DNA from: Escherichia coli
GTDB taxonomy: Bacteria > Pseudomonadota > Gammaproteobacteria > Enterobacterales > Enterobacteriaceae
Direction: 5' to 3' (one strand)
Assembly (NCBI RefSeq): GCF_030013595.1
Contig: NZ_CP122769.1
Length of the DNA stretch: 64,000 nt
Shown: piece after piece, positions 3,851 to 63,142 of the stretch
Position numbering within the stretch: the stretch's first letter is position 1
Layout of the letters: each line of letters starts with the position of its first letter
The notes under the pieces: model-generated
Told to the model about the DNA's origin: nothing
What the model saw: only the letters and a program-made list of their open reading frames with translations
Database searches by the model: none
Program-made: the position numbers and the translations under genes

Positions 3851-4390
3851 GTGTTTACACCACCAGCAGATGATGTGAAACCTATTCCCGTTCCTGATGA
3901 GATTTACACTCAGTGCATTACGGATGCCGCCCGCTTCTTCGGAATTGATGCCGAACTGGTTTTTACGTTGTTTGACAATGAAGGCGGTAAGGTTGGTACT
4001 TTCAGCAGGAATACTAACGGCACTTATGATATTGGCCCGATGCAGATCAACTCATCCAATCTGCCTGAAATAAAAAAGCATTTCCCGACTGTAACGTGGC
4101 GGGTTCTGGCTTACGATGCTTGCGCTAGTTTCTGGGTTGGAACATGGTGGCTCTACAGAAAAATTGTTGATCGCAAGGGCAATGTGTTTGAAGGGATTGC
4201 AGATTACAACAGCAAAACCCCAAAGGTACGTGCAAAGTACATATTTAACTTCATGGTAAAGTACAATCGCCGGATCCAGCAGCGTAACGGGATGGGTGAG
4301 CTTTATCAATGGACCCAACAACCTCCTCGATACAATGGCCATATAGCTAAAAATGTCCCGGAGCAAAACCCGACTCCTGTTGTTAAATAA
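3851..4390 (+). CDS. Lytic transglycosylase (SLT domain), T4SS-associated
   Basis: 179-aa ORF (GTG start); LFDNEGGKVGT..NGTYDIGPMQINSSNL is the SLT/IagB-type catalytic Glu and GPMQI motif. Confidence 0.75.
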   Translation: MFTPPADDVKPIPVPDEIYTQCITDAARFFGIDAELVFTLFDNEGGKVGTFSRNTNGTYDIGPMQINSSNLPEIKKHFPTVTWRVLAYDACASFWVGTWWLYRKIVDRKGNVFEGIADYNSKTPKVRAKYIFNFMVKYNRRIQQRNGMGELYQWTQQPPRYNGHIAKNVPEQNPTPVVK

Positions 4391-4472
4391 ATTCAACCTG
4401 ATATTACAGAAGATCATCGAGTAGCTTGGGTACCCCCCCGCAAAAAATTCGCATAGACTCAGGGGTAATAAA

Positions 4473-5039
4473 TTGTCTTTTTCTGCAAGAAATATATTTA
4501 AGATTCTCTCTTCTTTCTTGATGCAGAAAAGCCCTCTTCATGAAGAAGTATGTGTTCCTGAAGAAACAACAGCTGGTTTATGGGGCCCTCTCCCTGATTC
4601 GCATGTCGTGCTTTTCTTAGATTTCGATGGGGTTTGTCACAGGTGCAAAAATGAAACCTTTGAGCGAATGCCATTGGTGGAAAAATTACTGGATAAATGC
4701 CCTTCCATGGTGATTGTCATCTCCAGTTCGTGGCGTGAATGTGCCAGTATAACTTACCTGAAATCTCTTTTCCGGCTACCTTATAGAGACAAAGTCATAG
4801 GTGCTACCGATTCGGTATATTTAAAACCTAATCAGTCAGGTGTGCGGGCTGCTGAGTGTGAGGACTTTGTATTTTCACATCGAGTTAAAGCATTTATCTG
4901 CCTTGATGACGACGAATCATTATTCCCGGTCGGTTATCCACATTTGCAAAAAACCAATTATTACACCGGCCTCACCGAATCTGATCTTGCAGCTCTTAAC
5001 ACCAGGTATCATCTGCTTATGAAACGTTGGGCTTCCTGA
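4473..5039 (+). CDS. HAD-like domain protein of unknown function
   Basis: 188-aa ORF (TTG start; ATG alternative at 4521); VVLFLDFDGVCH resembles the HAD DxDG motif. Confidence 0.5.
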   Translation: MSFSARNIFKILSSFLMQKSPLHEEVCVPEETTAGLWGPLPDSHVVLFLDFDGVCHRCKNETFERMPLVEKLLDKCPSMVIVISSSWRECASITYLKSLFRLPYRDKVIGATDSVYLKPNQSGVRAAECEDFVFSHRVKAFICLDDDESLFPVGYPHLQKTNYYTGLTESDLAALNTRYHLLMKRWAS

Positions 5040-5042
5040 ATT

Positions 5043-5053
5043 AAAGTAACTTT
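5043..5053. repeat. Palindromic box, copy 4 (ttAAAGTAACTTTTac)
   Basis: Read directly; 4 nt after the stop of the 4473..5039 gene. Confidence 0.8.
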
Positions 5054-5146
5054 TACGGAGAGCATGCCCGCATTATCAGTTCTATGCTTCTCCATTTCTG
5101 CCCCGGGTCAAAGCATTGCACAGTTGGAAGAAAACATGCCGGTCTC

Positions 5147-6436
5147 TTAAGCTTGCTGCTCAGTTTGGTTCCGGTGCTGAAAAACCTGCCAACGGTGCTT
5201 TAGGAATTCAGTATTGATGGGTTTACGCAGCGGCTTAATAAACTCTCCTTGATATGCCGCTAAATCATGATCTACCGCCAAAGCTTCAGCGAGAATGTTA
5301 ACCTCCAACGTCACCGGATGAATGGCAATCATGTTTGCGTCGAAAAGATCGTGTATATCATGGCGTAAGAGCAACCCATTTGTATAATGGTCTACTCCTC
5401 CGTTACGATGCTCCATCAGATGAGCAGCCTCAGTGCGCTGGCGCAGTCTAGAGCCTGTAATCACACATTGGTCATAACAGTTGTTGCGGACGGCTTCTGC
5501 AAATGAGGCCTGATCTGGTCGTGTCTCGACAGTTGTCTTACTACCCTTACGCTTACCCGGTACAGTAGTTTCATCAGGAATATTCGGCTGAAGCTCCTTT
5601 TCTTCTATACCATCAGTCTTCATAGCGACCATAATCGCGGCCGGTGGAGATTTAGGCTGATCTTCCTGCGATCTTTCGCGGCCACCAACTGGATACCCTA
5701 GAAAACCCTCAATGATCTCTAGTGGAGGTAATGTAGCGTTTGAACGTGCATAAATAGCGAACTCTGCGGCACGTCCGCCGGGAATATATCTACGTACCAG
5801 TATTGGAAGAGAGGCTTCTTCATCTGGTTCCTCTTTTTCCGACAGGATTATTCGTTCGGTGAGACGGGCTGAATTTTTTTTCATTTCACTCAACAGTCTA
5901 TTGCGTTCTTTTACCTTTCGGTCATTATCCTCCAACATCTTACGATGACTAACCTTAGCCAGATGGTCTTCCAGTTCCTGTATATATTCGGGATCGATAG
6001 TGTCAATTAGACCGAACGCCATCAACCGCTCCCCCCTTGTTTTACAAGATTCTAGCCGAACGCGAATGTACTCCTTACGCTTGGCCATCAAATGTTCTTT
6101 TTGTTTTTTTTCTCGAATTACACGGAGCTGAGTATTGTAATTAGAATAAACGGTTTCGCTATTCTGCTCTGTCTCTAGAGCAAATTTTTGTAGGTGTTCA
6201 CGTAGTTTTTTACGGGTATTTTTGGGGGCATGCATTACGGTACGCTCAATGTATGAGCCTGTGCAGCGTAAAGAAAGTACAGTTTCAGCATGGGAATAAC
6301 CAGCATTGAGACGATAGCGGGCAATTTTAAGCAAATTATTAAAGTGTGCACCATTACATATACCTAGTTCTTCCAAGACACGACGTTCTCTATCATTAAT
6401 AGATGGATGGTTAATATCTTTTACTTTGTTTGCCAT
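5147..6436 (-). CDS. HNH endonuclease-domain protein with long coiled-coil N-terminal part
   Basis: 429-aa ORF; C-terminus CVITGSRL..AAHLMEHRNGGVDHYTNGLLLRHDIHDLFDANMIAIHP fits the HNH (HNH_2-type) pattern. Confidence 0.7.
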   Translation of the reverse strand: MANKVKDINHPSINDRERRVLEELGICNGAHFNNLLKIARYRLNAGYSHAETVLSLRCTGSYIERTVMHAPKNTRKKLREHLQKFALETEQNSETVYSNYNTQLRVIREKKQKEHLMAKRKEYIRVRLESCKTRGERLMAFGLIDTIDPEYIQELEDHLAKVSHRKMLEDNDRKVKERNRLLSEMKKNSARLTERIILSEKEEPDEEASLPILVRRYIPGGRAAEFAIYARSNATLPPLEIIEGFLGYPVGGRERSQEDQPKSPPAAIMVAMKTDGIEEKELQPNIPDETTVPGKRKGSKTTVETRPDQASFAEAVRNNCYDQCVITGSRLRQRTEAAHLMEHRNGGVDHYTNGLLLRHDIHDLFDANMIAIHPVTLEVNILAEALAVDHDLAAYQGEFIKPLRKPINTEFLKHRWQVFQHRNQTEQQA

Positions 6437-54363: not shown

Positions 54364-55614
54364 TTAAGTCCGATACAGTTCGGCGAGCTCATCCAGCATG
54401 GGGTTACTCTTATATCCCGGTGCGGCCGTAAAAAGGTTTCGGGAAATCGCCAGCCACTCCATGATTTTGTCCGTCGCCAGCCAACGTCTGCCAAGTCGCT
54501 CGGCTGCGATGGGGACTTTATGCAAGCCAGCGAAGGGATCTACAACAAGATCTCCCGGCTCTGTCAAAAACTCAATCAGAAACGCTGCAAGCCTGGTAGG
54601 AGACGTTGCACCGTGCAGCGGAAAACCGAGCTCGCGGGCAATGGAATGGCAAAATCTCGTATCAGCGCAGCTATTGCCGTAAAACAAAGTATTCTTGGGG
54701 ATCGTTCCTTCTGTTTTATTTCCAAAGGAACCGCTTTTAAGCTGGTACGCCCCATCACCATAAAAGGTCGTGCGATTTTCACCGCCTGCTGCCTGCAATT
54801 TTAGATGCTGGTCTGAATGCGGTTGTAGTACACGTAAGTTGTTTGAACGAACCTTACTCGCATCATTGGTAAACCACAGCACAGGCTCATACGATGAGCA
54901 GAGCTGCACCCGTTGCTTACATGCCCAGTGCGTTGGCGATGGGGGCTTACTGCGATTCACCCACTGAAGCCTGTCCATGAGCTCAAGCCCCAGCTTGTCA
55001 CATAATGCCAGTGTCAGACGCTCCAGATACAGAGAACGTGAAGGCCTACCCCTATTAAAGCTATCTTGAGTGATATTCAATGCCACACTTGCGCCCGGTA
55101 CAAGCTGTTTCACGATCGGTTCGAGGATACGCAGAAGCCAGTCAATATAAGCCTGCTCGCCACGCCCCCCTCCGTGCCCGTAGTCTCTTGAATTTCGAAG
55201 GAGGTAAGGTGGCGAGGTCAGGCAAAGATGAATTTGCTCGGTGATATTGCTGAAGAAGGCATAGGCGTTTCCAAAAACCGATGCCCCAAGAGAAGTTGAG
55301 AAACCGACAACACAGAGCTTTTCCCATGACTCATGCAGGTTTGTTTTCGTCTTAGAGGCGTATCTCCAGACGCCCCGTTTTTCTGGAACGCGTTCGATGA
55401 CCCCGGCCTGACGGAGAGTCTGCTGAAACCAGCGAACCTTATGTTTGACGCCGCTGGTTCTGGTTTTATCTGACCCAAATTCTTTCAGTTCGTGCAATTC
55501 GGCATCCGACATGCCAGTTTTACGCTGCACTTCGCGATAAAGCTCGTCGTTGGTCAACGGCGATTCGGAGGCAGCGTAGATATGCGCAATTAAGTCCGTA
55601 TTAATCGTACTCAT
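54364..55614 (-). CDS. Orphan DNA methyltransferase (beta-class N4-C/N6-A, SPPY type) with extra N-terminal domain
   Basis: 416-aa ORF; catalytic motif IV CLTSPPYLL precedes SAM motif I VVDPFAGLH..ERLGRRWLATD (IV-before-I order). Confidence 0.75.
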   Translation of the reverse strand: MSTINTDLIAHIYAASESPLTNDELYREVQRKTGMSDAELHELKEFGSDKTRTSGVKHKVRWFQQTLRQAGVIERVPEKRGVWRYASKTKTNLHESWEKLCVVGFSTSLGASVFGNAYAFFSNITEQIHLCLTSPPYLLRNSRDYGHGGGRGEQAYIDWLLRILEPIVKQLVPGASVALNITQDSFNRGRPSRSLYLERLTLALCDKLGLELMDRLQWVNRSKPPSPTHWACKQRVQLCSSYEPVLWFTNDASKVRSNNLRVLQPHSDQHLKLQAAGGENRTTFYGDGAYQLKSGSFGNKTEGTIPKNTLFYGNSCADTRFCHSIARELGFPLHGATSPTRLAAFLIEFLTEPGDLVVDPFAGLHKVPIAAERLGRRWLATDKIMEWLAISRNLFTAAPGYKSNPMLDELAELYRT

Positions 55615-57297: not shown

Positions 57298-57391
57298 TTT
57301 ACCCGTCCCCGTCCATATTCATGATACGGTAATGATACCAGGTCGATATCATTACCTAATAACTTGGTGAAAGAAAATCTGTAATTTTTAG

Positions 57392-57769
57392 TTAACTAAA
57401 ATTAATAGTCTCAATACTGCTCAAGAATTCTTTTTTTACGTCCGGTGTAAAAGGTATACGTTCAATGTATTTATAAAGTGTCGCAAATGTTTTGGGTTCA
57501 ATGTTTCGGGAGATAATGTCATCAATCGGATCTTCGAACATATTGATAAAGATATCGACATGCTGCTCTCCGCTTTCTGATGCCTTTGAAAGAAGACTGA
57601 CCACTTCAATGTAGCGATTATCCTGCTCTGCAATGAACAACCAGTGCCCTTCGTTAAAGGCGGGTGCAGCGCTGTAGCGTTTAACAACAATTTCTGAAAG
57701 ATTATATCCTGCCTGATTCAGCAGATTATTAAAGTTGAGTTGAGTTGAAATCACGTCTAACGTTTTCAT
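57392..57769 (-). CDS. Hypothetical protein
   Basis: 125-aa ORF; AGGAGG SD; conserved promoter module upstream. Confidence 0.6.
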   Translation of the reverse strand: MKTLDVISTQLNFNNLLNQAGYNLSEIVVKRYSAAPAFNEGHWLFIAEQDNRYIEVVSLLSKASESGEQHVDIFINMFEDPIDDIISRNIEPKTFATLYKYIERIPFTPDVKKEFLSSIETINFS

Positions 57770-57793
57770 AAAACCTCCTTTTCATCTGTACTT

Positions 57794-57830
57794 ATTATAC
57801 TGTTACCCAACCCCCAGCTAATAACCTCCC
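57794..57830 (-). promoter_or_regulatory. Conserved promoter module, copy 8
   Basis: Minus strand GGGAGGTTATTAGCT, 16 nt, TATAAT. Confidence 0.6.
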
Positions 57831-57939
57831 AGCAAATTTTCAGAAAAAAAACACCGCCTTTTATTTAAGATTGAACACATCCTTTTTAAATACCAACAAT
57901 GATTATGAAACCACAATGTAAGTGAAGCGCCATTATGGA

Positions 57940-57950
57940 AAAGTAACTTT
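57940..57950. repeat. Palindromic box, copy 19 (ggAAAAGTAACTTTTgtg)
   Basis: Read directly; 110 bp upstream of promoter module copy 8. Confidence 0.85.
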
Positions 57951-58176
57951 TGTGCAGCTCATAAATTTTATTTATTAGTTACGTTCCTTTGTCTTGTGGT
58001 CGAAGTTCATCAGGCGAGGCCTAAGAAGAATATGTGTGGTTTCAGCCAATGCGGTGATCGGGCATTATAATTTGGTCGGGCTATTATACGTGGGTAAAGG
58101 TAGTGGTAGGGAGAGGATCAGGTTAAATTGCATTTTCCCGGTTGCCTTCCCTGGCCTACCGGTTTCAGGTCAGACG

Positions 58177-59358
58177 CTAAGACCAGCGGTAATACTTAAA
58201 GTAGTCCTCATTTACAGCCAAAAACTCCCTTAAACCGTTCATTAATCCCTTTTCAAACGCTGTAACGATAAACCGGTATCCGTCCAGTGTTTCAATGTAG
58301 TAGATCCCGCCCGGTGTTATTCCAACATGCAACACCTCGGCTGTCATCATAAACTGGCCTTCCGGAAAATCATGCGACAGGTATATAAAACCCGTCGTGG
58401 CCGGTGCGGGTGTGGCATTCACTAAGACACCGTTAAACTGCTGCCCGTGCCTCGCCGGTACAAGCTCACTTCCCCTGGTTGACTTATCGAGCAGCCCCTT
58501 AACATCTTTTTGCTCTTTAGATGAGGTATAGCCCCGCACATCACTCCCATCACCTGGGCGAGAGCCGGTGCCGACATGTGCAAGACGACGGTAAGCGCTG
58601 CGCATATTGATGTGGCAGGATGCCCCGGCTCTACCCTGAAGCCTTACGCCAAAATCTTCGCAAAGTAATAAAATCTGACGTAGCTGGTGTTCATACACGG
58701 ACGCAGAAAGTGAAAGGTTGAAACTGGAAAAGGTCAGTTCTAAAACCTTTTCCCGTTTGTCATTGAAATGTGCTTCCAGCCTGATGATTGGCTTTTCCGA
58801 CATTGCAAAAGCTTTGTCCGTTGCTCTGTACCGGCATTCATCTCCGAAACATTCTTCAACAACGCTGGCTATAACCGTGTCGTGATCGCCATCTTCCGGA
58901 GCTGGCACAAAGATTTCAAATTGTGCCGGTGTCTCCGGCTCCAGCAGAACGGGATATAAACGCGGAGAATTAAGCAATGCGCATTCAGAATTAATGAGCT
59001 TAACCCAGGCGCTTTTGTCGTCCGGATCCTTAAGCTGCTGTCCAAGGTTATCGCAAAAGTCTACTATCTGACGGGTATGCTCATCCGTGACTGCACAGAT
59101 CAGGTTAAGACCATGCGTGGCCATACTCAATTCCCGGGTTCGGGACTGGGAATTGATCGACCAGGGGTTAAGTGAAAGCGAAATAGGGCTTATGGAAGGG
59201 ACGACCGTCTCATTCTGCAAATCTGTAAGCTGGCAGTTCGCAGTAGGCTTCGGGGAAAGGGTACTAAATATGTAACTTGCCTGTTGTTTAGTACTGGCCT
59301 GGATATAAAACATCGCGTCCATGCTTGTATCCCGGGATGAAATTGAAAATAGCTTCAT
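58177..59358 (-). CDS. 393-aa protein of unknown function, translationally linked to the HigB-like toxin
   Basis: ATG 9 nt after the toxin stop (TAAGGTTAAAAATG); no HTH or other motif recognised. Confidence 0.6.
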   Translation of the reverse strand: MKLFSISSRDTSMDAMFYIQASTKQQASYIFSTLSPKPTANCQLTDLQNETVVPSISPISLSLNPWSINSQSRTRELSMATHGLNLICAVTDEHTRQIVDFCDNLGQQLKDPDDKSAWVKLINSECALLNSPRLYPVLLEPETPAQFEIFVPAPEDGDHDTVIASVVEECFGDECRYRATDKAFAMSEKPIIRLEAHFNDKREKVLELTFSSFNLSLSASVYEHQLRQILLLCEDFGVRLQGRAGASCHINMRSAYRRLAHVGTGSRPGDGSDVRGYTSSKEQKDVKGLLDKSTRGSELVPARHGQQFNGVLVNATPAPATTGFIYLSHDFPEGQFMMTAEVLHVGITPGGIYYIETLDGYRFIVTAFEKGLMNGLREFLAVNEDYFKYYRWS

Positions 59359-59366
59359 TTTTAACC

Positions 59367-59663
59367 TTAATGGATGAGCGATTTATAGTCATGTGCTGAC
59401 AAATGGACATTATGTGCGCCATCATTCCATTCAAAGAATAATCGATACTTAGAGTTTACTCGAATGGAGGAATAACGGTTTGACGTCATTCTTAAGCGTT
59501 CATAACGCAAGCTGTTGGATAATAACTCCCGCTCACTCTGGACATTATCCAGCGTTTCGAGTCGACACAGAATCGCGTTAATAATTTCAGAAGGAATACC
59601 TGCCGTTGTTTTTCCATTACGGAAGAACTTTTCAAGCCGTCTGTCTTTAAATGAATGGATCAT
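59367..59663 (-). CDS. higB: HigB-like (RelE/ParE superfamily, 'plasmid maintenance system killer') toxin
   Basis: 98-aa ORF; MIHSFKDRRLEKFF..G..IP.., ..RYERLR....YSIRVNSKYRLFFEWNDG.A..V.L..DY matches the MIxSFxxK..E..F / SIRIN..WRI.F.W pattern of this family. Confidence 0.7.
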   Translation of the reverse strand: MIHSFKDRRLEKFFRNGKTTAGIPSEIINAILCRLETLDNVQSERELLSNSLRYERLRMTSNRYSSIRVNSKYRLFFEWNDGAHNVHLSAHDYKSLIH

Positions 59664-59712
59664 AGTTCCTCCGTAATAATTGACCTTAAAATTAAATTAA
59701 AAGGGCTTTGAA

Positions 59713-60183
59713 TTAATGAATCCCTAAAATGCGGGCGGCGACTGCCAGCTGCTTATCACTTAACTGACGCTGGTGGGTTAAAGAAGACTTAAGGCTTTCC
59801 AGAAAATTATTACTGCTGGATTGCTGGGTGATTGCATCAACCATTTTTTGATGAGATCTGCACCATGCATTGAACGCAGAGTTGTGGGCGTTTTCAGTCC
59901 TCAAACGCTCGTTTTGCAAGGATGCTGACACTTTGCGGGCAGCTTGAGCATTAATGCGGTACAGCGCATTCAGCGTGTAAGAAGTGCGGGTCGTTTCGAG
60001 GCTGTAACCCGTGGCTTTACAAGCCATACAGCGACTTCTATAAAAATGCTTACGCTCTCCCCGACCATTGCATTTATCGCAAAGAATACGAAAAGTATAT
60101 TCCGCAGTACCTTTTACAGAATCAACACAGCGGATTTTTGCGCTGGAGATTTCAATTCCACTGCGATCATAATATTTGGTCAT
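59713..60183 (-). CDS. Zinc-finger (DnaJ-type CxxCxGxG) protein of unknown function
   Basis: 156-aa ORF; CDKCNGRG and CMACKATG repeats; GGAGGA SD. Confidence 0.6.
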   Translation of the reverse strand: MTKYYDRSGIEISSAKIRCVDSVKGTAEYTFRILCDKCNGRGERKHFYRSRCMACKATGYSLETTRTSYTLNALYRINAQAARKVSASLQNERLRTENAHNSAFNAWCRSHQKMVDAITQQSSSNNFLESLKSSLTHQRQLSDKQLAVAARILGIH

Positions 60184-60213
60184 AATGTGATTCCTCCGGT
60201 TAGTTCTGGAGTA

Positions 60214-60250
60214 ATCATGACAGAATGAATCTACTGGCTAATAACCTGAG
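60214..60250 (-). promoter_or_regulatory. Conserved promoter module, copy 9
   Basis: Minus strand CTCAGGTTATTAGCC, 16 nt, CATGAT. Confidence 0.55.
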
Positions 60251-60617
60251 AGTAAATATTTTAAAAAAACATTGAGAGAGGGTCTGCAAATTTATACACG
60301 AAGGATTCAAATATAATTTTGTTTAAAAAATTAAGAGCATTCTGAAGTAAAAGTGCATCAAAAAGCATTCATGGATAAATCATGTACTGGTGCCAGCCAT
60401 TTAAACGCGGGCATTGTTCCGGAGTGATTAAACGGTTTAGCATCATAGATTAAAACCAAAAGGAAGGCGTCCTTCCCGTCTCGGGAATATTACTTTCCCG
60501 TTTGCAATTTAAGAGCCACTTAATGAGAAAGTAATAATTAAGTCATGCTCAACTCTACATATTACATTGAGGATGGCGTAACAGGGTACGGCATACTACC
60601 GCACCCTTCTGAAGAGC

Positions 60618-63007
60618 TTATGTTTGAGGGAATTCTATAGCAAATGTGGCCGTGCCAGATTGACCACTTACAGCGGGAGTAACGGGATACGTGCGCTCTT
60701 CACCATTACCAAGATCCAGTGACAGCGATTTAGTTTCACCAGGCTGGACCGTAACTCCGGCAACCGTAACGCCGAACTGGGCATTTTTCTGAACAGTCAG
60801 GGTTCCGTTTAACTGTCCGGTAATGATAGAACCGTCCTGACGCCGCAACACACTGGTTCGGATGATGGCCAGCGGCGTGTTGTCCGTTGCTTTCAGTGCT
60901 ACGGCTGTGGCCAGCGTCTTGAGATTATCCAGCATAATCAGATTCGCAGGCTGGTAGGTAAAATTAAGCGTTTTAGTGGTCCGGTTACCTGATTCGTCAA
61001 TAGCCAGTGCCTCCAGATGATACATCTGTCCCGATTCGTCAGTGTTGGGGAAGATTCTGGGGTATTCCGGAATAAAGACATCCTTGGATAACGGCGTGAA
61101 TGCCAGGGTGACCTTTTCAGAGTTAGGTCCACCAGCGAGCTGAAGCGATGTCAGGGAAGCATCCCCAGAGGCATCAGTAACGCTTATGCGAAGGTTCTCA
61201 AGCCCTTTAACCAGTTTTCCTTCTGCGTCTGCGCCATTAAAACTGAACGCGATAACCGGAAGCGTTGAGTCAATTTTCAGCGGTGCATTAAGCGTTTTGG
61301 TTCCGGTGTTTCCAACAAGATCCGTGGCAGAGACGCTAACCACCGTATAATCCCCGTCCGGTAGACCAGCGTATGAGAAGGTGGCGTTTTTGGTTTATAA
61401 TCGCTTTCACTGACGGTCACAGGCTTCAGCGTGAAAGGTTCCCCCCGGGCATTTTTAAGGGTGGCTTCGAAAACTTTGGTATCCCAGTAGCTGATGTTCC
61501 AGGCGTTGACGCGATCATTATCGGTGGCCGTCATAGTGATTGTCTTGGAGGCCTTGTTTACCTGAGCGACATTAACCACCGGTGGGTTGTTATCCCAGAT
61601 AACCGTAAAATTACCAGCAAGCGCATCGAATATGCTGTCACCATCTTTTCCCGAGTAAAGGTGCAGATACTCAAATCCTTTGTCACTGGTGTAGTTGAAG
61701 TTAACCGTCATCTCGCATGAACTTTGTCCGATAGGTATAGTGCAGAACCAGGCTGCATTTTTTACCGTTCTGAACTTTTGCACGTATGGTCGGGGTTCAG
61801 CGGTTACCTTTATGCGGCTAATGGTGGCGGTTTTAACGCTGATTGAGGCCTGAGTTAACCACTCACTGGTATCACTCCGGTACATCTCTTTAGCCACTAT
61901 CTTCGGGGCTATTTCCATCGCCGGGGCTGGAGTGAAGTTGAGGGAGTTATGATGAATTCGTCTTACTCCTCCTGCCAGAGTCTGGAATTCATGATAAGTA
62001 TCCCCCACATTGGGATATATGTATTTGAAAGTATAAATATTATAAGTGCTATCGGACGTCTGGAAATTCGAGTCCGCCCAGCCATATTTGGAACCGTTAA
62101 CAGCAGTAAAGTCACTTTTTTTCCTTAATACCCGTACGGAAATAGGGTTCTGGAAGACGGTCATGCCAGACTGATAAGTGACCCATGATCCGGTAGTGGC
62201 GTCCTGCACCTGGATGATATCGTCAGGCTTAACCCGATCAATTACGCTTCGGCGGCTTAGTTCGATCCTGTTTCCCGCTTTGTCATAAAGGTAGATCCCC
62301 ACTTTATATTCAGAGCGGTTTTCCGGTGCCAGGGCATTGCTGCTTGCGTCGGCGACTTGAACGGTTACGCTACCTTCCACTGTATTAATTTCCGCTGGCT
62401 TTTTACGCTCCACTCCAGCGGCATCGGTTATGAAATATTCAGCATTAGCAAGCCCGGAACCTTTATCACTCAGTCCATTAAAGACCAGTGCCTGGACGCT
62501 GGCGTACTGCATACCGGCTGGTACTGAAGTGAAGATCGCTTCGCTGCCAAAGTTCCACCCGTTTCTCGTATAACTTATGGTACCCGTTGCCGGAGGCGTT
62601 CGGTCAATTGCAAGCGGGTAATCCTGCCGGGAGACCTCCTTCCCTTGCAAGTCGGTAATCACCTCTCTGAGGGTGAAGCTATCTTCTCCCATCGCTGGTA
62701 CGGTCAGAGTCTTGCCGTAATAATCAAAGCCTGTCGAAGATGTGGTACGGTCATCTACGGTAACCAGGCTGCTTTTCGTGCTCCAGATGAGGCTCCCGTC
62801 ACTTTTCAGCAGACTGAGCGTAATATAACGGTCCAGACCGGAAATAACGGCAACGTCAAAGCTCGTTACCGGATTAATCCATACGGATGCAGGCGATACG
62901 GTCTTTTTAACGTTCAGGGTATCTTTAAAGCTGAATTCTGCGATTTCAGCGGAAGCTCCTGCGCTGAAACCTGCAAATGCAATAAGCAGGGCTAGTTTGA
63001 TTTTCAT
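60618..63007 (-). pseudogene. Secreted multi-Ig-like (Big-type) surface protein, split by a frameshift in an A5 run
   Basis: Signal peptide MKIKLALLIAFAGFSAGASA; repeated ..D.AGN.. beta-sandwich motifs; ORFs 61277..63034 and 60618..61343 join if sense A5 (plus T5 61387-61391) were A6, giving about 796 aa. Confidence 0.7.
62108..62118. repeat. Palindromic box, copy 20 (tAAAGTCACTTTtt, centre C), inside Ig-like gene
   Basis: Read directly. Confidence 0.65.
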
Positions 63008-63142
63008 GGGTTGTCTCCTGATCAGGTTCCCCATGATACTTTTTCAGTGTTCGAGATCTTTTCGGGAAAATAGCTAATTTTAATGTTTTTCTTTTCTGCC
63101 CGGCGGGACTTGTTTTGTTTACGTAAATGCAAAAATACAAGA

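What the first reader, a model, noticed from the sequence alone, without database searches (positions are those of the whole stretch)
58177..59663. HigB-like toxin followed by a 393-aa partner instead of a short HTH antitoxin
The 98-aa product fits the HigB 'killer protein' family (MIHSFKDRRLEKFF.., ..YSSIRVNSKYRLFFEWNDG..).

In canonical loci the next gene is a HigA antitoxin of about 100 aa with an XRE HTH. Here the next gene starts 9 nt after the toxin stop and encodes 393 aa. I can see no HTH or other motif in it.

Three readings are possible:
- a novel large antitoxin;
- a toxin-guarded effector (a defence-type module);
- a toxin domesticated as a regulator.

The pair has no separate promoter module of its own. 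It may be read through from the zinc-finger gene upstream.
Basis: partly seen in the sequence, partly recalled or inferred. Interest (0 to 1): 0.55.

Follow-up and report, generated by a model that had tools for sequence, protein, structure and literature searches.

The report
IncHI plasmid HigB toxin, unusual partners
Large IncHI drug-resistance plasmids carry a conserved three-gene unit in which a HigB-type toxin gene is followed by a 393-residue protein matching no known family instead of the usual small antitoxin, and whether that protein is the antitoxin has not been tested.

Summary
On the minus strand, a 98-aa HigB-family gene (59367-59663; Pfam PF05015, E 5e-18) is followed after 8 nt by a 393-aa ORF (58177-59358) with no family hit. 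The window is IncHI2 plasmid backbone.

The pair is the distal part of a three-gene unit: a basic Zn-knuckle protein (59713-60183), HigB, then the large protein. The unit stays intact across IncHI1, IncHI2 and relatives, even where the large protein is only 30% identical and the flanks are rearranged. About 1,300 of 72,556 PLSDB plasmids carry both genes. All three genes are under purifying selection, the toxin most strongly. The nearest outgroup toxin (38% identity) has a normal HTH HigA.

The large protein has three parts: an internally duplicated N-module, a conserved low-confidence linker, and a PH-like C-terminal barrel that also occurs as stand-alone proteins unlinked to HigB. The PGAP name "flavin reductase" and its 315-aa start are unsupported.

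Best reading (confidence about 0.4): a split, non-canonical HigB module. The acidic large protein neutralises the toxin and the Zn-knuckle protein regulates.

Caveats:
- The catalytic His is displaced by a 4-residue insertion.
- A natural C-terminal truncation of the partner coexists with intact higB.
- Published deletion of the whole region in R27 did not affect plasmid stability.

This is a new variant of a known kind, of moderate interest.

The parts
60212..60246 (-). Conserved promoter-like block upstream of the Zn-finger gene (GGTTATTAGCC-N-TCTGTCATGATTAC). It reads as an extended -10 (TGtCATGAT) about 30 nt before the start codon.
   Evidence: Aligned upstream regions of seven loci, including IncHI1 and IncHI2, conserve only this block. 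The simple sigma-70 scan did not call it, and no operator palindrome was found. The promoter role is inferred.
60461..60477 (-). Terminator-like hairpin plus T-run between the upstream Ig-like gene and the trio. It argues that the trio is its own transcription unit.
   Evidence: GGGAAGGACGCCTTCCT followed by TTTGGTTTTA.
59713..60183 (-). Gene 1: a 156-aa strongly basic protein with one DnaJ-type zinc knuckle (C35-x2-C38...C52-x2-C55) and a helical C-terminal half. It is the candidate DNA-binding regulator and the rival antitoxin candidate.
   Evidence: ORF. Weak DnaJ_CXXCXGXG hits. PHROG 4046 of unknown function, E 1e-12. The family has only 14 clusters, all in the same plasmids. pI 9.3-9.8, net +8 to +13. 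dN/dS about 0.10-0.12. Always the first gene of the trio.
59367..59663 (-). Gene 2: a 98-aa HigB-family (RelE-superfamily) toxin homologue with a strong GGAGG Shine-Dalgarno at 59668-59672. Its C-terminus reads DY-KSLI-H instead of DYH.
   Evidence: PF05015 E 5.4e-18. P. vulgaris HigB 4mct E 7.5e-6. Catalytic-site mapping. dN/dS 0.04-0.08. 22 clusters only, and the next relative is at 38% identity.
58630..59358 (-). Gene 3, residues 1-243: the acidic N-terminal module. It is an internal tandem duplication (residues about 17-110 match 149-241), and each half has two beta-beta-alpha units.
   Evidence: AF2 secondary structure, pLDDT mostly 70-90. HHalign of the two halves gives probability 95.8%, E 7e-9. 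pI about 4.9-5.5 in 4 of 5 lineages. No fold match. It is the only part retained in the natural truncation in L011.
58474..58629 (-). Gene 3, residues 244-295: a linker modelled at low confidence that still contains invariant residues (R267, G269, D273, R275, E282). It may fold only on binding a partner.
   Evidence: pLDDT 35-55. Invariant columns. The binding role is inferred.
58180..58473 (-). Gene 3, residues 296-393: the conserved C-terminal domain, a five-stranded barrel capped by a helix (PH-like). It belongs to an undescribed family that mostly occurs as stand-alone proteins of 110-190 aa. It holds 39 of the protein's 68 invariant positions.
58177..59358 (-). Gene 3 as a whole: a 393-aa protein translationally coupled to the toxin gene (8-nt gap, AAGG overlapping the toxin stop).
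   Evidence: dN/dS 0.15-0.17. The full-length family forms only two 50%-identity clusters in 1.84 billion representatives.

Best explanation
This is a lineage-restricted three-gene HigB-type toxin module of the IncHI plasmid backbone, in which two unrelated proteins have replaced the usual small HTH antitoxin HigA.

Proposed mechanism:
1. One promoter upstream of the Zn-finger gene drives all three genes.
2. The 98-aa protein is a RelE/HigB-fold, ribosome-dependent mRNA endonuclease, or at least a ribosome-binding translation inhibitor.
3. The 393-aa acidic protein is translated in step with it from the coupled start 8 nt downstream. It binds and neutralises it, most likely through the duplicated N-terminal module, with or without the conserved low-confidence linker.
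4. The strongly basic Zn-knuckle protein supplies the nucleic-acid-binding and regulatory function that the large protein lacks.
5. The conserved C-terminal barrel of the large protein is a separable domain. It gives the partner a second, still unknown activity or input.

Shown: gene order and coupling, family membership of the toxin, conservation of the trio, co-occurrence, purifying selection, domain architecture, absence of HigA, and absence of any known fold or family for the partner.

Inferred: toxicity, physical binding, which protein neutralises, and the regulator role.
For: - Toxin identity: PF05015 at 65.7 bits and the PHROG TA toxin family. Arg73, Asp90 and Tyr91 equivalents are invariant, and the Glu at the His54 position also occurs in a canonical outgroup.
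- The toxin is the most constrained gene: dN/dS 0.04-0.08 with dS near saturation. It is therefore functional.
- HigBA-type order with tight coupling: gaps of 8-15 nt with an SD in all five lineages.
- The trio stays intact while its flanks are rearranged.
- Near-perfect co-occurrence: 1,299 and 1,303 plasmid records. All three families are equally narrow, at 14, 22 and 20 clusters.
- The nearest outgroup toxin (38% identity) is followed by a 98-aa HTH_3 HigA. The ancestral partner was therefore replaced in this clade.
- No HigA-like gene in the window or in 50 kb of R27. The literature lists the plasmid's higB as a 'partial' TA system.
- The partner evolves faster than the toxin, as antitoxins usually do.
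- Charge complementarity: toxin pI about 9.6-10.1, partner pI 5.2-5.9 in 4 of 5 lineages, Zn-finger protein pI 9.3-9.8.
- The N-module alone is retained next to an intact higB in an Enterobacter chromosome. This fits neutralisation by the N-module.
Against: - No binding or toxicity data exist.
- Complex modelling was not available.
- His92 is essential in P. vulgaris HigB (H92A, H92F and the Lys-bearing 'delta-H92' variant are inactive). In this clade it is separated from Tyr by a KSL[IV] insertion, and one member lacks the terminal His. Nuclease activity is therefore uncertain.
- The partner has no recognisable antitoxin or DNA-binding domain.
- Its most conserved part, the C-domain, also occurs without any HigB neighbour. 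That part was lost in L011 without loss of higB.
- In one lineage (L002) the partner is not acidic.
- Deletion 4 of R27 removes the whole trio and was reported not to reduce plasmid stability. No addiction phenotype has been seen, although R27 has redundant stability systems.
- All conservation comes from one plasmid lineage, so synteny alone could explain the co-occurrence.
Confidence: 0.4

Rival explanations
1. The upstream Zn-knuckle protein is the real antitoxin and autoregulator, in the antitoxin-then-toxin order of RelBE or PasAB. The 393-aa protein is a third, accessory component: a helper like PasC, a chaperone as in the HigBA-SecB TAC systems, or unrelated cargo that shares the transcript.
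For: - The Zn-finger gene is always the first gene of the unit and is as lineage-restricted as the toxin.
- At 156 aa it has a size typical of antitoxins.
- It evolves faster than the toxin.
- The L011 truncation of the large protein is tolerated next to an intact higB and an intact Zn-finger gene.
- Three-component RelE/ParE-family systems are established knowledge (PaaR-PaaA-ParE, PasABC, TAC).
Against: - PF05015 toxins normally precede their antitoxin, as the outgroup does.
- The Zn-finger protein is strongly basic, like the toxin. That suits nucleic-acid binding better than masking a basic RNA-binding surface.
- It is separated from higB by 49-57 nt and higB has its own strong SD. The large gene, by contrast, is start-stop coupled to higB.
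- It has no similarity to MqsA or any other antitoxin.
Confidence: 0.2
2. The HigB-like protein is no longer a toxin. It is a repurposed RelE-fold protein, for example a ribosome- or RNA-binding regulator. The trio serves another plasmid function such as establishment, anti-defence or control of neighbouring genes, so no antitoxin is needed.
For: - There is a clade-specific rearrangement at the catalytic C-terminus. The residue after Tyr is Lys, as in the inactive P. vulgaris variant, and the terminal His lies 4 residues further on.
- No HigA is present.
- Deleting the whole trio in R27 gave no stability phenotype.
- The large protein can lose its C-terminal half without loss of higB.
- The neighbourhood is rich in orphan DNA methyltransferases and a PAPS-reductase-like gene.
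Against: - Arg73, Asp90 and Tyr91 equivalents are invariant, and the terminal His is kept in all but one member.
- Constraint on the protein is very strong, with dN/dS 0.04-0.08.
- RelE-family active sites are known to be plastic (discussion in PMC5027501), so altered residues do not prove loss of activity.
- Tight coupling to a co-evolving partner is what a toxin needs.
Confidence: 0.2
3. The module is an abortive-infection or exclusion-type defence system. The 393-aa protein holds HigB inactive and releases it when its conserved C-terminal barrel senses a trigger such as a phage protein or foreign or unmethylated DNA. This is the first explanation with a different biological output.
For: - Many TA modules act as phage defence (established knowledge).
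- The partner is a large multi-domain protein with a highly conserved, separable C-domain.
- No plasmid-stability phenotype was seen.
- One stand-alone homologue sits 10 nt upstream of a cytosine methyltransferase gene.
Against: - No PADLOC model matches any of the three proteins.
- The structural similarity is weak and generic (PH-like).
- The methyltransferase adjacency rests on a single case.
- The module sits in the conserved plasmid backbone, not in a variable defence island.
- There are no experimental data.
Confidence: 0.12
4. The 393-aa gene encodes a flavin reductase, as PGAP names it, and merely happens to lie next to an orphan toxin gene.
For: Only the RefSeq product name 'flavin reductase (family protein)' on many records.
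Against: - No Flavin_Reduct or other flavin-reductase model is hit by any of the 15 family members, even at E up to 10.
- Other RefSeq records call the same protein 'hypothetical'.
- The 315-aa start used with that name removes a conserved N-terminus.
Confidence: 0.02

Closest known systems
HigB-HigA of plasmid Rts1 (Proteus vulgaris), the type II TA archetype of Pfam PF05015
   Same: - The toxin is a homologue (E 7.5e-6 to 4mct).
- The toxin gene precedes its partner.
- It is plasmid-borne.
- The Arg73, Asp90 and Tyr91 equivalents are kept.
   Different: - The partner is 393 aa with no HTH and no homology to HigA.
- A Zn-knuckle gene is a fixed upstream member.
- The C-terminal DYH motif is interrupted (DY-KSLI-H).
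- No stabilisation phenotype was reported for the region in R27.
Three-component RelE/ParE-superfamily systems: PaaR2-PaaA2-ParE2 (E. coli O157), PasABC (pTF-FC2) and HigB1-HigA1-SecB-like TAC (M. tuberculosis). Cited from general knowledge, not tested here.
   Same: It is a three-gene operon built around a RelE-superfamily toxin, in which neutralisation and regulation or assistance are divided between two other proteins.
   Different: - Neither non-toxin component shows sequence or fold similarity to PaaR, PaaA, PasA, PasC, HigA or SecB.
- The partner is far larger.
- The roles of the two proteins are unassigned.
MqsR-MqsA. Cited from general knowledge.
   Same: It pairs a RelE-fold toxin with a non-standard partner that uses a zinc-binding domain.
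   Different: - Here the Zn protein is upstream of the toxin and basic, with a single DnaJ-type knuckle and no HTH.
- It has no detectable similarity to MqsA.
An undescribed family of stand-alone small proteins of about 110-190 aa (P0031-P0056), ending in ...N..Y[FY]...[QR]WS
   Same: They are homologous to residues about 296-393 of the large protein (E 1e-11 to 1e-4 against the profile). They are found on plasmids and in accessory gene strings.
   Different: - They are stand-alone or carry other extensions.
- None has a HigB neighbour.
- Their function is unknown and they have no Pfam hit.

Membership tests
HigB-like toxin (Pfam PF05015, RelE superfamily) | Sequence matches the family profile above the curated threshold | tested here: met
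   65.7 bits against a gathering score of 27, E 5.4e-18, covering 4-88 of the protein and 2-88 of the 91-position profile. PHROG 3066 E 8.9e-18. PDB 4mct HigB E 7.5e-6.
HigB-like toxin (Pfam PF05015, RelE superfamily) | Active-site residues shown to be critical in P. vulgaris HigB (His54, Arg73, Asp90, Tyr91, His92; PMC5027501) | tested here: inconclusive
   Arg, Asp and Tyr are invariant. The His54 position is Glu (Lys in one lineage), and Glu is also present in a canonical outgroup. His92 is replaced in register by Lys, with a His four residues later (DY-KSL[IV]-H), and one member ends in LL.
HigB-like toxin (Pfam PF05015, RelE superfamily) | Growth inhibition by ribosome-dependent mRNA cleavage | not testable with these tools
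   This needs expression and cleavage assays. The only indirect evidence is strong purifying selection (dN/dS 0.04-0.08).
Canonical HigBA type II toxin-antitoxin system | Downstream antitoxin of about 100 aa with an XRE/HTH_3 DNA-binding domain (HigA) | tested here: not met
   The downstream gene encodes 393 aa with no HTH or any other Pfam, NCBIfam, PADLOC or PHROG domain. No HigA-like ORF in the window or in 50 kb of R27. The outgroup P0078 does have a HigA.
Canonical HigBA type II toxin-antitoxin system | The partner protein binds and neutralises the toxin | not testable with these tools
   No multimer modelling or experiment was available. The circumstantial evidence is coupling, co-occurrence and charge complementarity.
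Canonical HigBA type II toxin-antitoxin system | Plasmid stabilisation by post-segregational killing | tested here: inconclusive
   From the literature, not my own test. R27 deletion 4 (60,355-67,055) contains the whole trio (64,810-66,827). It was obtained, and only deletion 16 lowered stability. R27 has redundant partition and stability systems, so a contribution could be masked.
Three-component TA systems (PaaR-PaaA-ParE, PasABC, TAC) | Three co-oriented, co-conserved genes around a RelE-superfamily toxin | tested here: met
   The trio is conserved in seven lineages with short gaps and one conserved upstream promoter block.
Three-component TA systems (PaaR-PaaA-ParE, PasABC, TAC) | Non-toxin components homologous to the known regulator, antitoxin or chaperone families | tested here: not met
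   There is no sequence or fold similarity to any of them.
Flavin reductase (the PGAP product name of the 393-aa protein) | Flavin_Reduct / FMN-binding split-barrel domain | tested here: not met
   [not shown]
Known anti-phage defence systems (PADLOC-DB v2) | Any component matches a defence-system model | tested here: not met
   There are no hits for any of the three proteins at E up to 0.1.

The most novel reading that the evidence does not exclude
The 393-aa protein is an antitoxin with a previously undescribed fold that doubles as a sensor. Its duplicated N-module cages a HigB ribosome-dependent RNase. Its conserved PH/RFTS-like C-terminal barrel reads a signal such as invading phage, the DNA-methylation state or the plasmid's arrival in a new host, and so controls toxin release. 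The Zn-knuckle protein acts as a separate transcriptional regulator. This would make the module a new tripartite architecture on some of the most clinically important resistance plasmids.
Probability: 0.12. Interest if true: 0.75.

Novelty: new variant of a known kind. Interest (0 to 1): 0.45.

Why it matters
IncHI1 and IncHI2 plasmids carry multidrug resistance in typhoidal Salmonella and much of the mcr-1, ESBL and carbapenemase burden in Enterobacterales. About 1.8% of all PLSDB plasmids carry this module.

Its toxin gene is routinely reported as an orphan or 'partial' TA system, and its partner is mislabelled as a flavin reductase.

If the 393-aa protein is the neutraliser, three things follow:
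- It would add an antitoxin with an unrecognised fold and no DNA-binding domain to the HigB family.
- It would be an example of HigA being replaced by two proteins.
- It would give a first functional handle on a small uncharacterised domain family found on mobile elements.

If the toxin has instead been repurposed, the module would be a clear case of a RelE-fold protein kept under strong selection for a non-toxic role. Either result would correct the annotation of more than a thousand plasmid records.

Tried and rejected
- Natural-knockout tests. The ISApl1 insertion in pSE08-00436-1 lies downstream of the gene and does not disrupt it. The frameshifts in pSTEC1024_1 look like long-read indel errors, with 4 gaps in 2.2 kb at 99.8% identity. 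The truncated-toxin clusters are contig ends or error-prone metagenome contigs. Only the Enterobacter hormaechei chromosomal truncation (L011) is informative.
- Fusion hypothesis: that the large protein arose by fusing a stand-alone C-domain gene with its upstream neighbour. Rejected, because the neighbours are unrelated to the N-module and to HigB.
- The search for related loci with the C-domain alignment failed because the alignment was too diverse. The stand-alone domain has no match in the phage collection.
- RNA antitoxin: no Rfam match in 57300-60700 at E up to 1.
- Operator palindrome in the promoter block: none convincing. By eye there is no LexA-box-like CTGT-N8-ACAG.
- Zn-finger protein as an MqsA-like antitoxin or a lambda-Q-like antiterminator. 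It has no PDB similarity beyond the DnaJ knuckle, and the PHROG Q-like hit is only E 0.002.
- Paralogues of any component in the window or in R27 40-90 kb: none.
- Literature on R27 ORFs R0063-R0065 or on non-canonical HigB partners on IncHI plasmids: nothing found.
- The unobtainable R27 deletion 18 spans 168.6-175.0 kb and is unrelated to the trio.
Full report
**Observation.** The window region 58177-59663 holds two minus-strand ORFs: a 98-aa ORF (59367..59663) and a 393-aa ORF (58177..59358).
- They are separated by 8 nt, not 9. The junction reads TAAGGTTAAAAATG, so an SD-like AAGG overlaps the first gene's stop codon.
- The 98-aa protein is a secure member of Pfam PF05015 HigB-like_toxin (65.7 bits against a threshold of 27). 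It also matches the PHROG 'toxin of TA system' family. Its closest solved relative is HigB of plasmid Rts1 (4mct, E 7.5e-6).
- The 393-aa protein has no significant hit in Pfam, NCBIfam, PADLOC or PHROGs. This holds for the protein alone and for all 15 aligned family members at permissive thresholds.

**Where it sits.** The 3 kb around the pair is 100% identical to many conjugative plasmids of 200-290 kb typed IncHI2A/MOBH/MPF_F. There are 1,089 matching plasmid records, 260 of 5,426 complete E. coli genomes (almost always on plasmids), and no phage matches.
- RefSeq calls the toxin 'type II toxin-antitoxin system RelE/ParE family toxin'.
- The large gene is called 'flavin reductase', often with a 315-aa or 381-aa start, or 'hypothetical protein'.
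[quoted passage not shown] The lack of a higA has thus been noticed, but I found no study of the downstream gene.

**The unit is three genes, not two.**
- Homologues of the large protein form only 20 clusters among 5.8 billion sequences. They are nearly all 391-394 aa, and the N-terminus MK[LV][FY]G is conserved down to 30% identity. The 393-aa start is therefore right and the 315-aa PGAP start is wrong.
- In every lineage examined the order is the same: a 155-169-aa Zn-finger gene, a 98-aa higB-like gene, then the 391-394-aa gene. These lineages are four divergent metagenomic or genomic loci, IncHI1 pSRC27-H, R27 itself, and an Enterobacter chromosome.
- The flanks differ between lineages. 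The Ig-like gene lies on either side, and a TacA/GNAT toxin pair is inserted next to the unit in two lineages.
- Gaps are 49-57 nt before higB, which has a conserved GGAGG, and 8-15 nt before the large gene.
- Upstream of the Zn-finger gene only one block is conserved across lineages: GTTATTAGCC...TCTGTCATGAT, about 30 nt before the ATG. I read it as an extended -10 promoter. A terminator-like hairpin separates the unit from the upstream Ig-like gene.
- The three families are equally narrow, at 14, 22 and 20 clusters.
- tblastn finds the toxin in 1,299 and the large protein in 1,303 of 72,556 PLSDB records.

**The toxin.**
- Pairwise identity across five lineages is 60-89% for HigB, against 33-72% for the Zn-finger protein and 30-53% for the large protein.
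- dN/dS is 0.04-0.08, about 0.10-0.12 and 0.15-0.17 respectively, with synonymous sites near saturation. All three are functional, and the toxin is the most constrained.
- Schureck et al. 2016 (PMC5027501) showed that His54, Asp90, Tyr91 and His92 are each required for P. vulgaris HigB toxicity and that Arg73 contributes. Their 'delta-His92' variant, which actually carries a Lys at that position, is about 190-fold slower.
- In the IncHI clade the Arg, Asp and Tyr equivalents are invariant. The His54 position is Glu, which is also Glu in the canonical outgroup P0078 and so is a normal family variant.
- The C-terminus reads DY-KSL[IV]-H. The in-register residue is Lys and the His lies four residues further on. 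One member ends in LL.
- Catalysis is therefore plausible but not assured.
- The next relative outside the clade (P0078, 38% identity) is followed by a 98-aa HTH_3 protein, a standard HigA.
- No HigA-like ORF is detectable in the 64-kb window or in R27 40-90 kb.

**The large protein.**
- AF2 on the 15-sequence alignment gives a moderate model (pLDDT 71, pTM 0.63). It has four beta-beta-alpha units in residues 1-243, a low-confidence segment at 244-295, and a small C-terminal domain.
- HHalign shows that residues about 17-110 and 149-241 are homologous (probability 95.8%, E 7e-9). The N-module is therefore an internal tandem duplication.
- An exhaustive HMM search of 1.84 billion representatives finds only two full-length clusters. 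It also finds about 25 stand-alone proteins of 110-190 aa that match only positions 295-394. These have no Pfam domain.
- With them in the alignment, the C-terminal domain models at pLDDT 91 as a five-stranded barrel capped by a helix.
- This domain holds 39 of the protein's 68 invariant columns.
- Its stand-alone relatives lie in runs of small unannotated genes or on a Vibrio plasmid. None is next to a HigB-like gene.
- The low-confidence linker still contains invariant residues: R267, G269, D273, R275 and E282.

**Which protein neutralises?**
- The large protein is acidic in four of five lineages (pI 5.2-5.9, and about 5 for the N-module). HigB is basic (pI 9.6-10.1), and so is the Zn-finger protein (pI 9.3-9.8, net +8 to +13).
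- The Zn-finger protein has one DnaJ-type CxxCxGxG...CxxC knuckle and a helical C-terminal half. It shows no similarity to MqsA or other antitoxins.
- Four points make the large protein the better candidate for neutraliser: its coupling to higB, the HigBA gene order, its charge, and the replacement of HigA seen against the outgroup. The Zn-finger protein is the better candidate for nucleic-acid-binding regulator.
- One natural variant bears on this. In Enterobacter hormaechei CP077392 the large gene is cut after residue about 210, losing the linker and the C-domain. The Zn-finger gene, the promoter block and a 98-aa higB remain intact.
- That variant fits neutralisation by the N-module. It fits equally well with the Zn-finger protein being the antitoxin, or with a non-toxic HigB.

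**Experimental context from the literature.** Tassinari et al. 2016 (PMC4853401) attempted 19 deletions of 5-7 kb across R27.
- Deletion 4 (60,355-67,055) contains the whole trio (R27 64,810-66,827). It was obtained.
- Only deletion 16 (incC) reduced stability. The one deletion that could not be made (deletion 18, 168.6-175.0 kb) is elsewhere on the plasmid.
- The module is therefore dispensable, and no addiction phenotype was visible in E. coli in LB.
- Removing toxin and partner together does not test antitoxin function. R27 also has redundant stability systems.

**Verdict.** It is a lineage-restricted Zn-finger/HigB/393-aa operon in the IncHI backbone, in which the canonical HigA has been replaced.
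- Best reading (about 0.4): a split, non-canonical HigB module, with the acidic 393-aa protein as neutraliser and the basic Zn-knuckle protein as regulator.
- Rival (about 0.2): the Zn-finger protein is the antitoxin and the large protein is an accessory component.
- Rival (about 0.2): HigB has been repurposed and is no longer toxic.
- Rival (about 0.12): the same module acts as an abortive-infection or exclusion switch through the C-terminal domain.
- The 'flavin reductase' annotation is unsupported (about 0.02).
- It is a new variant of a known kind. It matters for annotation and for TA biology on clinically important plasmids, but its mechanism needs simple wet-lab tests or multimer modelling that I could not run.

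Noticed in passing
window about 61394 (Ig-like gene, ORFs 60618..61343 and 61277..63034, minus strand): The window has a single-base deletion relative to NZ_CP022165.1. It is the only difference in 6.7 kb. It splits the roughly 796-aa Ig-like (Big_3/DUF4165) surface-protein gene into 585-aa and 241-aa ORFs. It could be a real frameshift or a sequencing error.
   Followed up: partly
window 58177..59358 (-); RefSeq WP_164846946.1 and WP_000339752.1: PGAP annotates the same gene as 'flavin reductase' with 315-aa or 381-aa starts in some records, and as a 393-aa 'hypothetical protein' in others. Neither the name nor the short starts are supported by profiles, structure or N-terminal conservation.
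   Followed up: yes
[not shown]
   Followed up: partly
L013 242-628 and L024 2083-2472: Two unrelated metagenomic contigs have a homologous acidic protein of 128-129 aa (59% identity) immediately upstream of the stand-alone C-domain gene. This suggests a recurring two-gene unit of unknown function. It is unrelated to HigB and to the N-module.
   Followed up: partly
L006 7295-8046; L008 8401-9158: A TacA-like antitoxin plus GNAT acetyltransferase (TacT-like) toxin pair is inserted directly downstream of the trio in one lineage and about 2 kb downstream in another. This spot in the backbone appears to accumulate TA modules.
   Followed up: no
L011 (Enterobacter hormaechei CP077392.1, 3.73 Mb) 4165-5729: There is a chromosomal copy of the IncHI-type region in which the large gene is truncated after residue about 210, while the Zn-finger and higB genes are intact. 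The cluster has 9 member sequences, so the truncation persists in more than one isolate.
   Followed up: partly
window 54364..55614 (-) and neighbours; L001; L023: The surrounding backbone is rich in orphan DNA-modification genes. Examples are an Mrr_N + N6_N4 methylase, other methyltransferases, a PAPS-reductase-family gene of about 795 aa, and Dam and DUF4942 in R27. It also has many small genes without any family. The region looks like an anti-restriction or establishment region, not a housekeeping one.
   Followed up: no
window 60212..60246 (-): This sequence block upstream of the Zn-finger gene is conserved between IncHI1, IncHI2 and more distant relatives, while the rest of the intergenic region is not alignable. 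It is a candidate promoter or operator. The simple sigma-70 scan did not detect it.
   Followed up: partly
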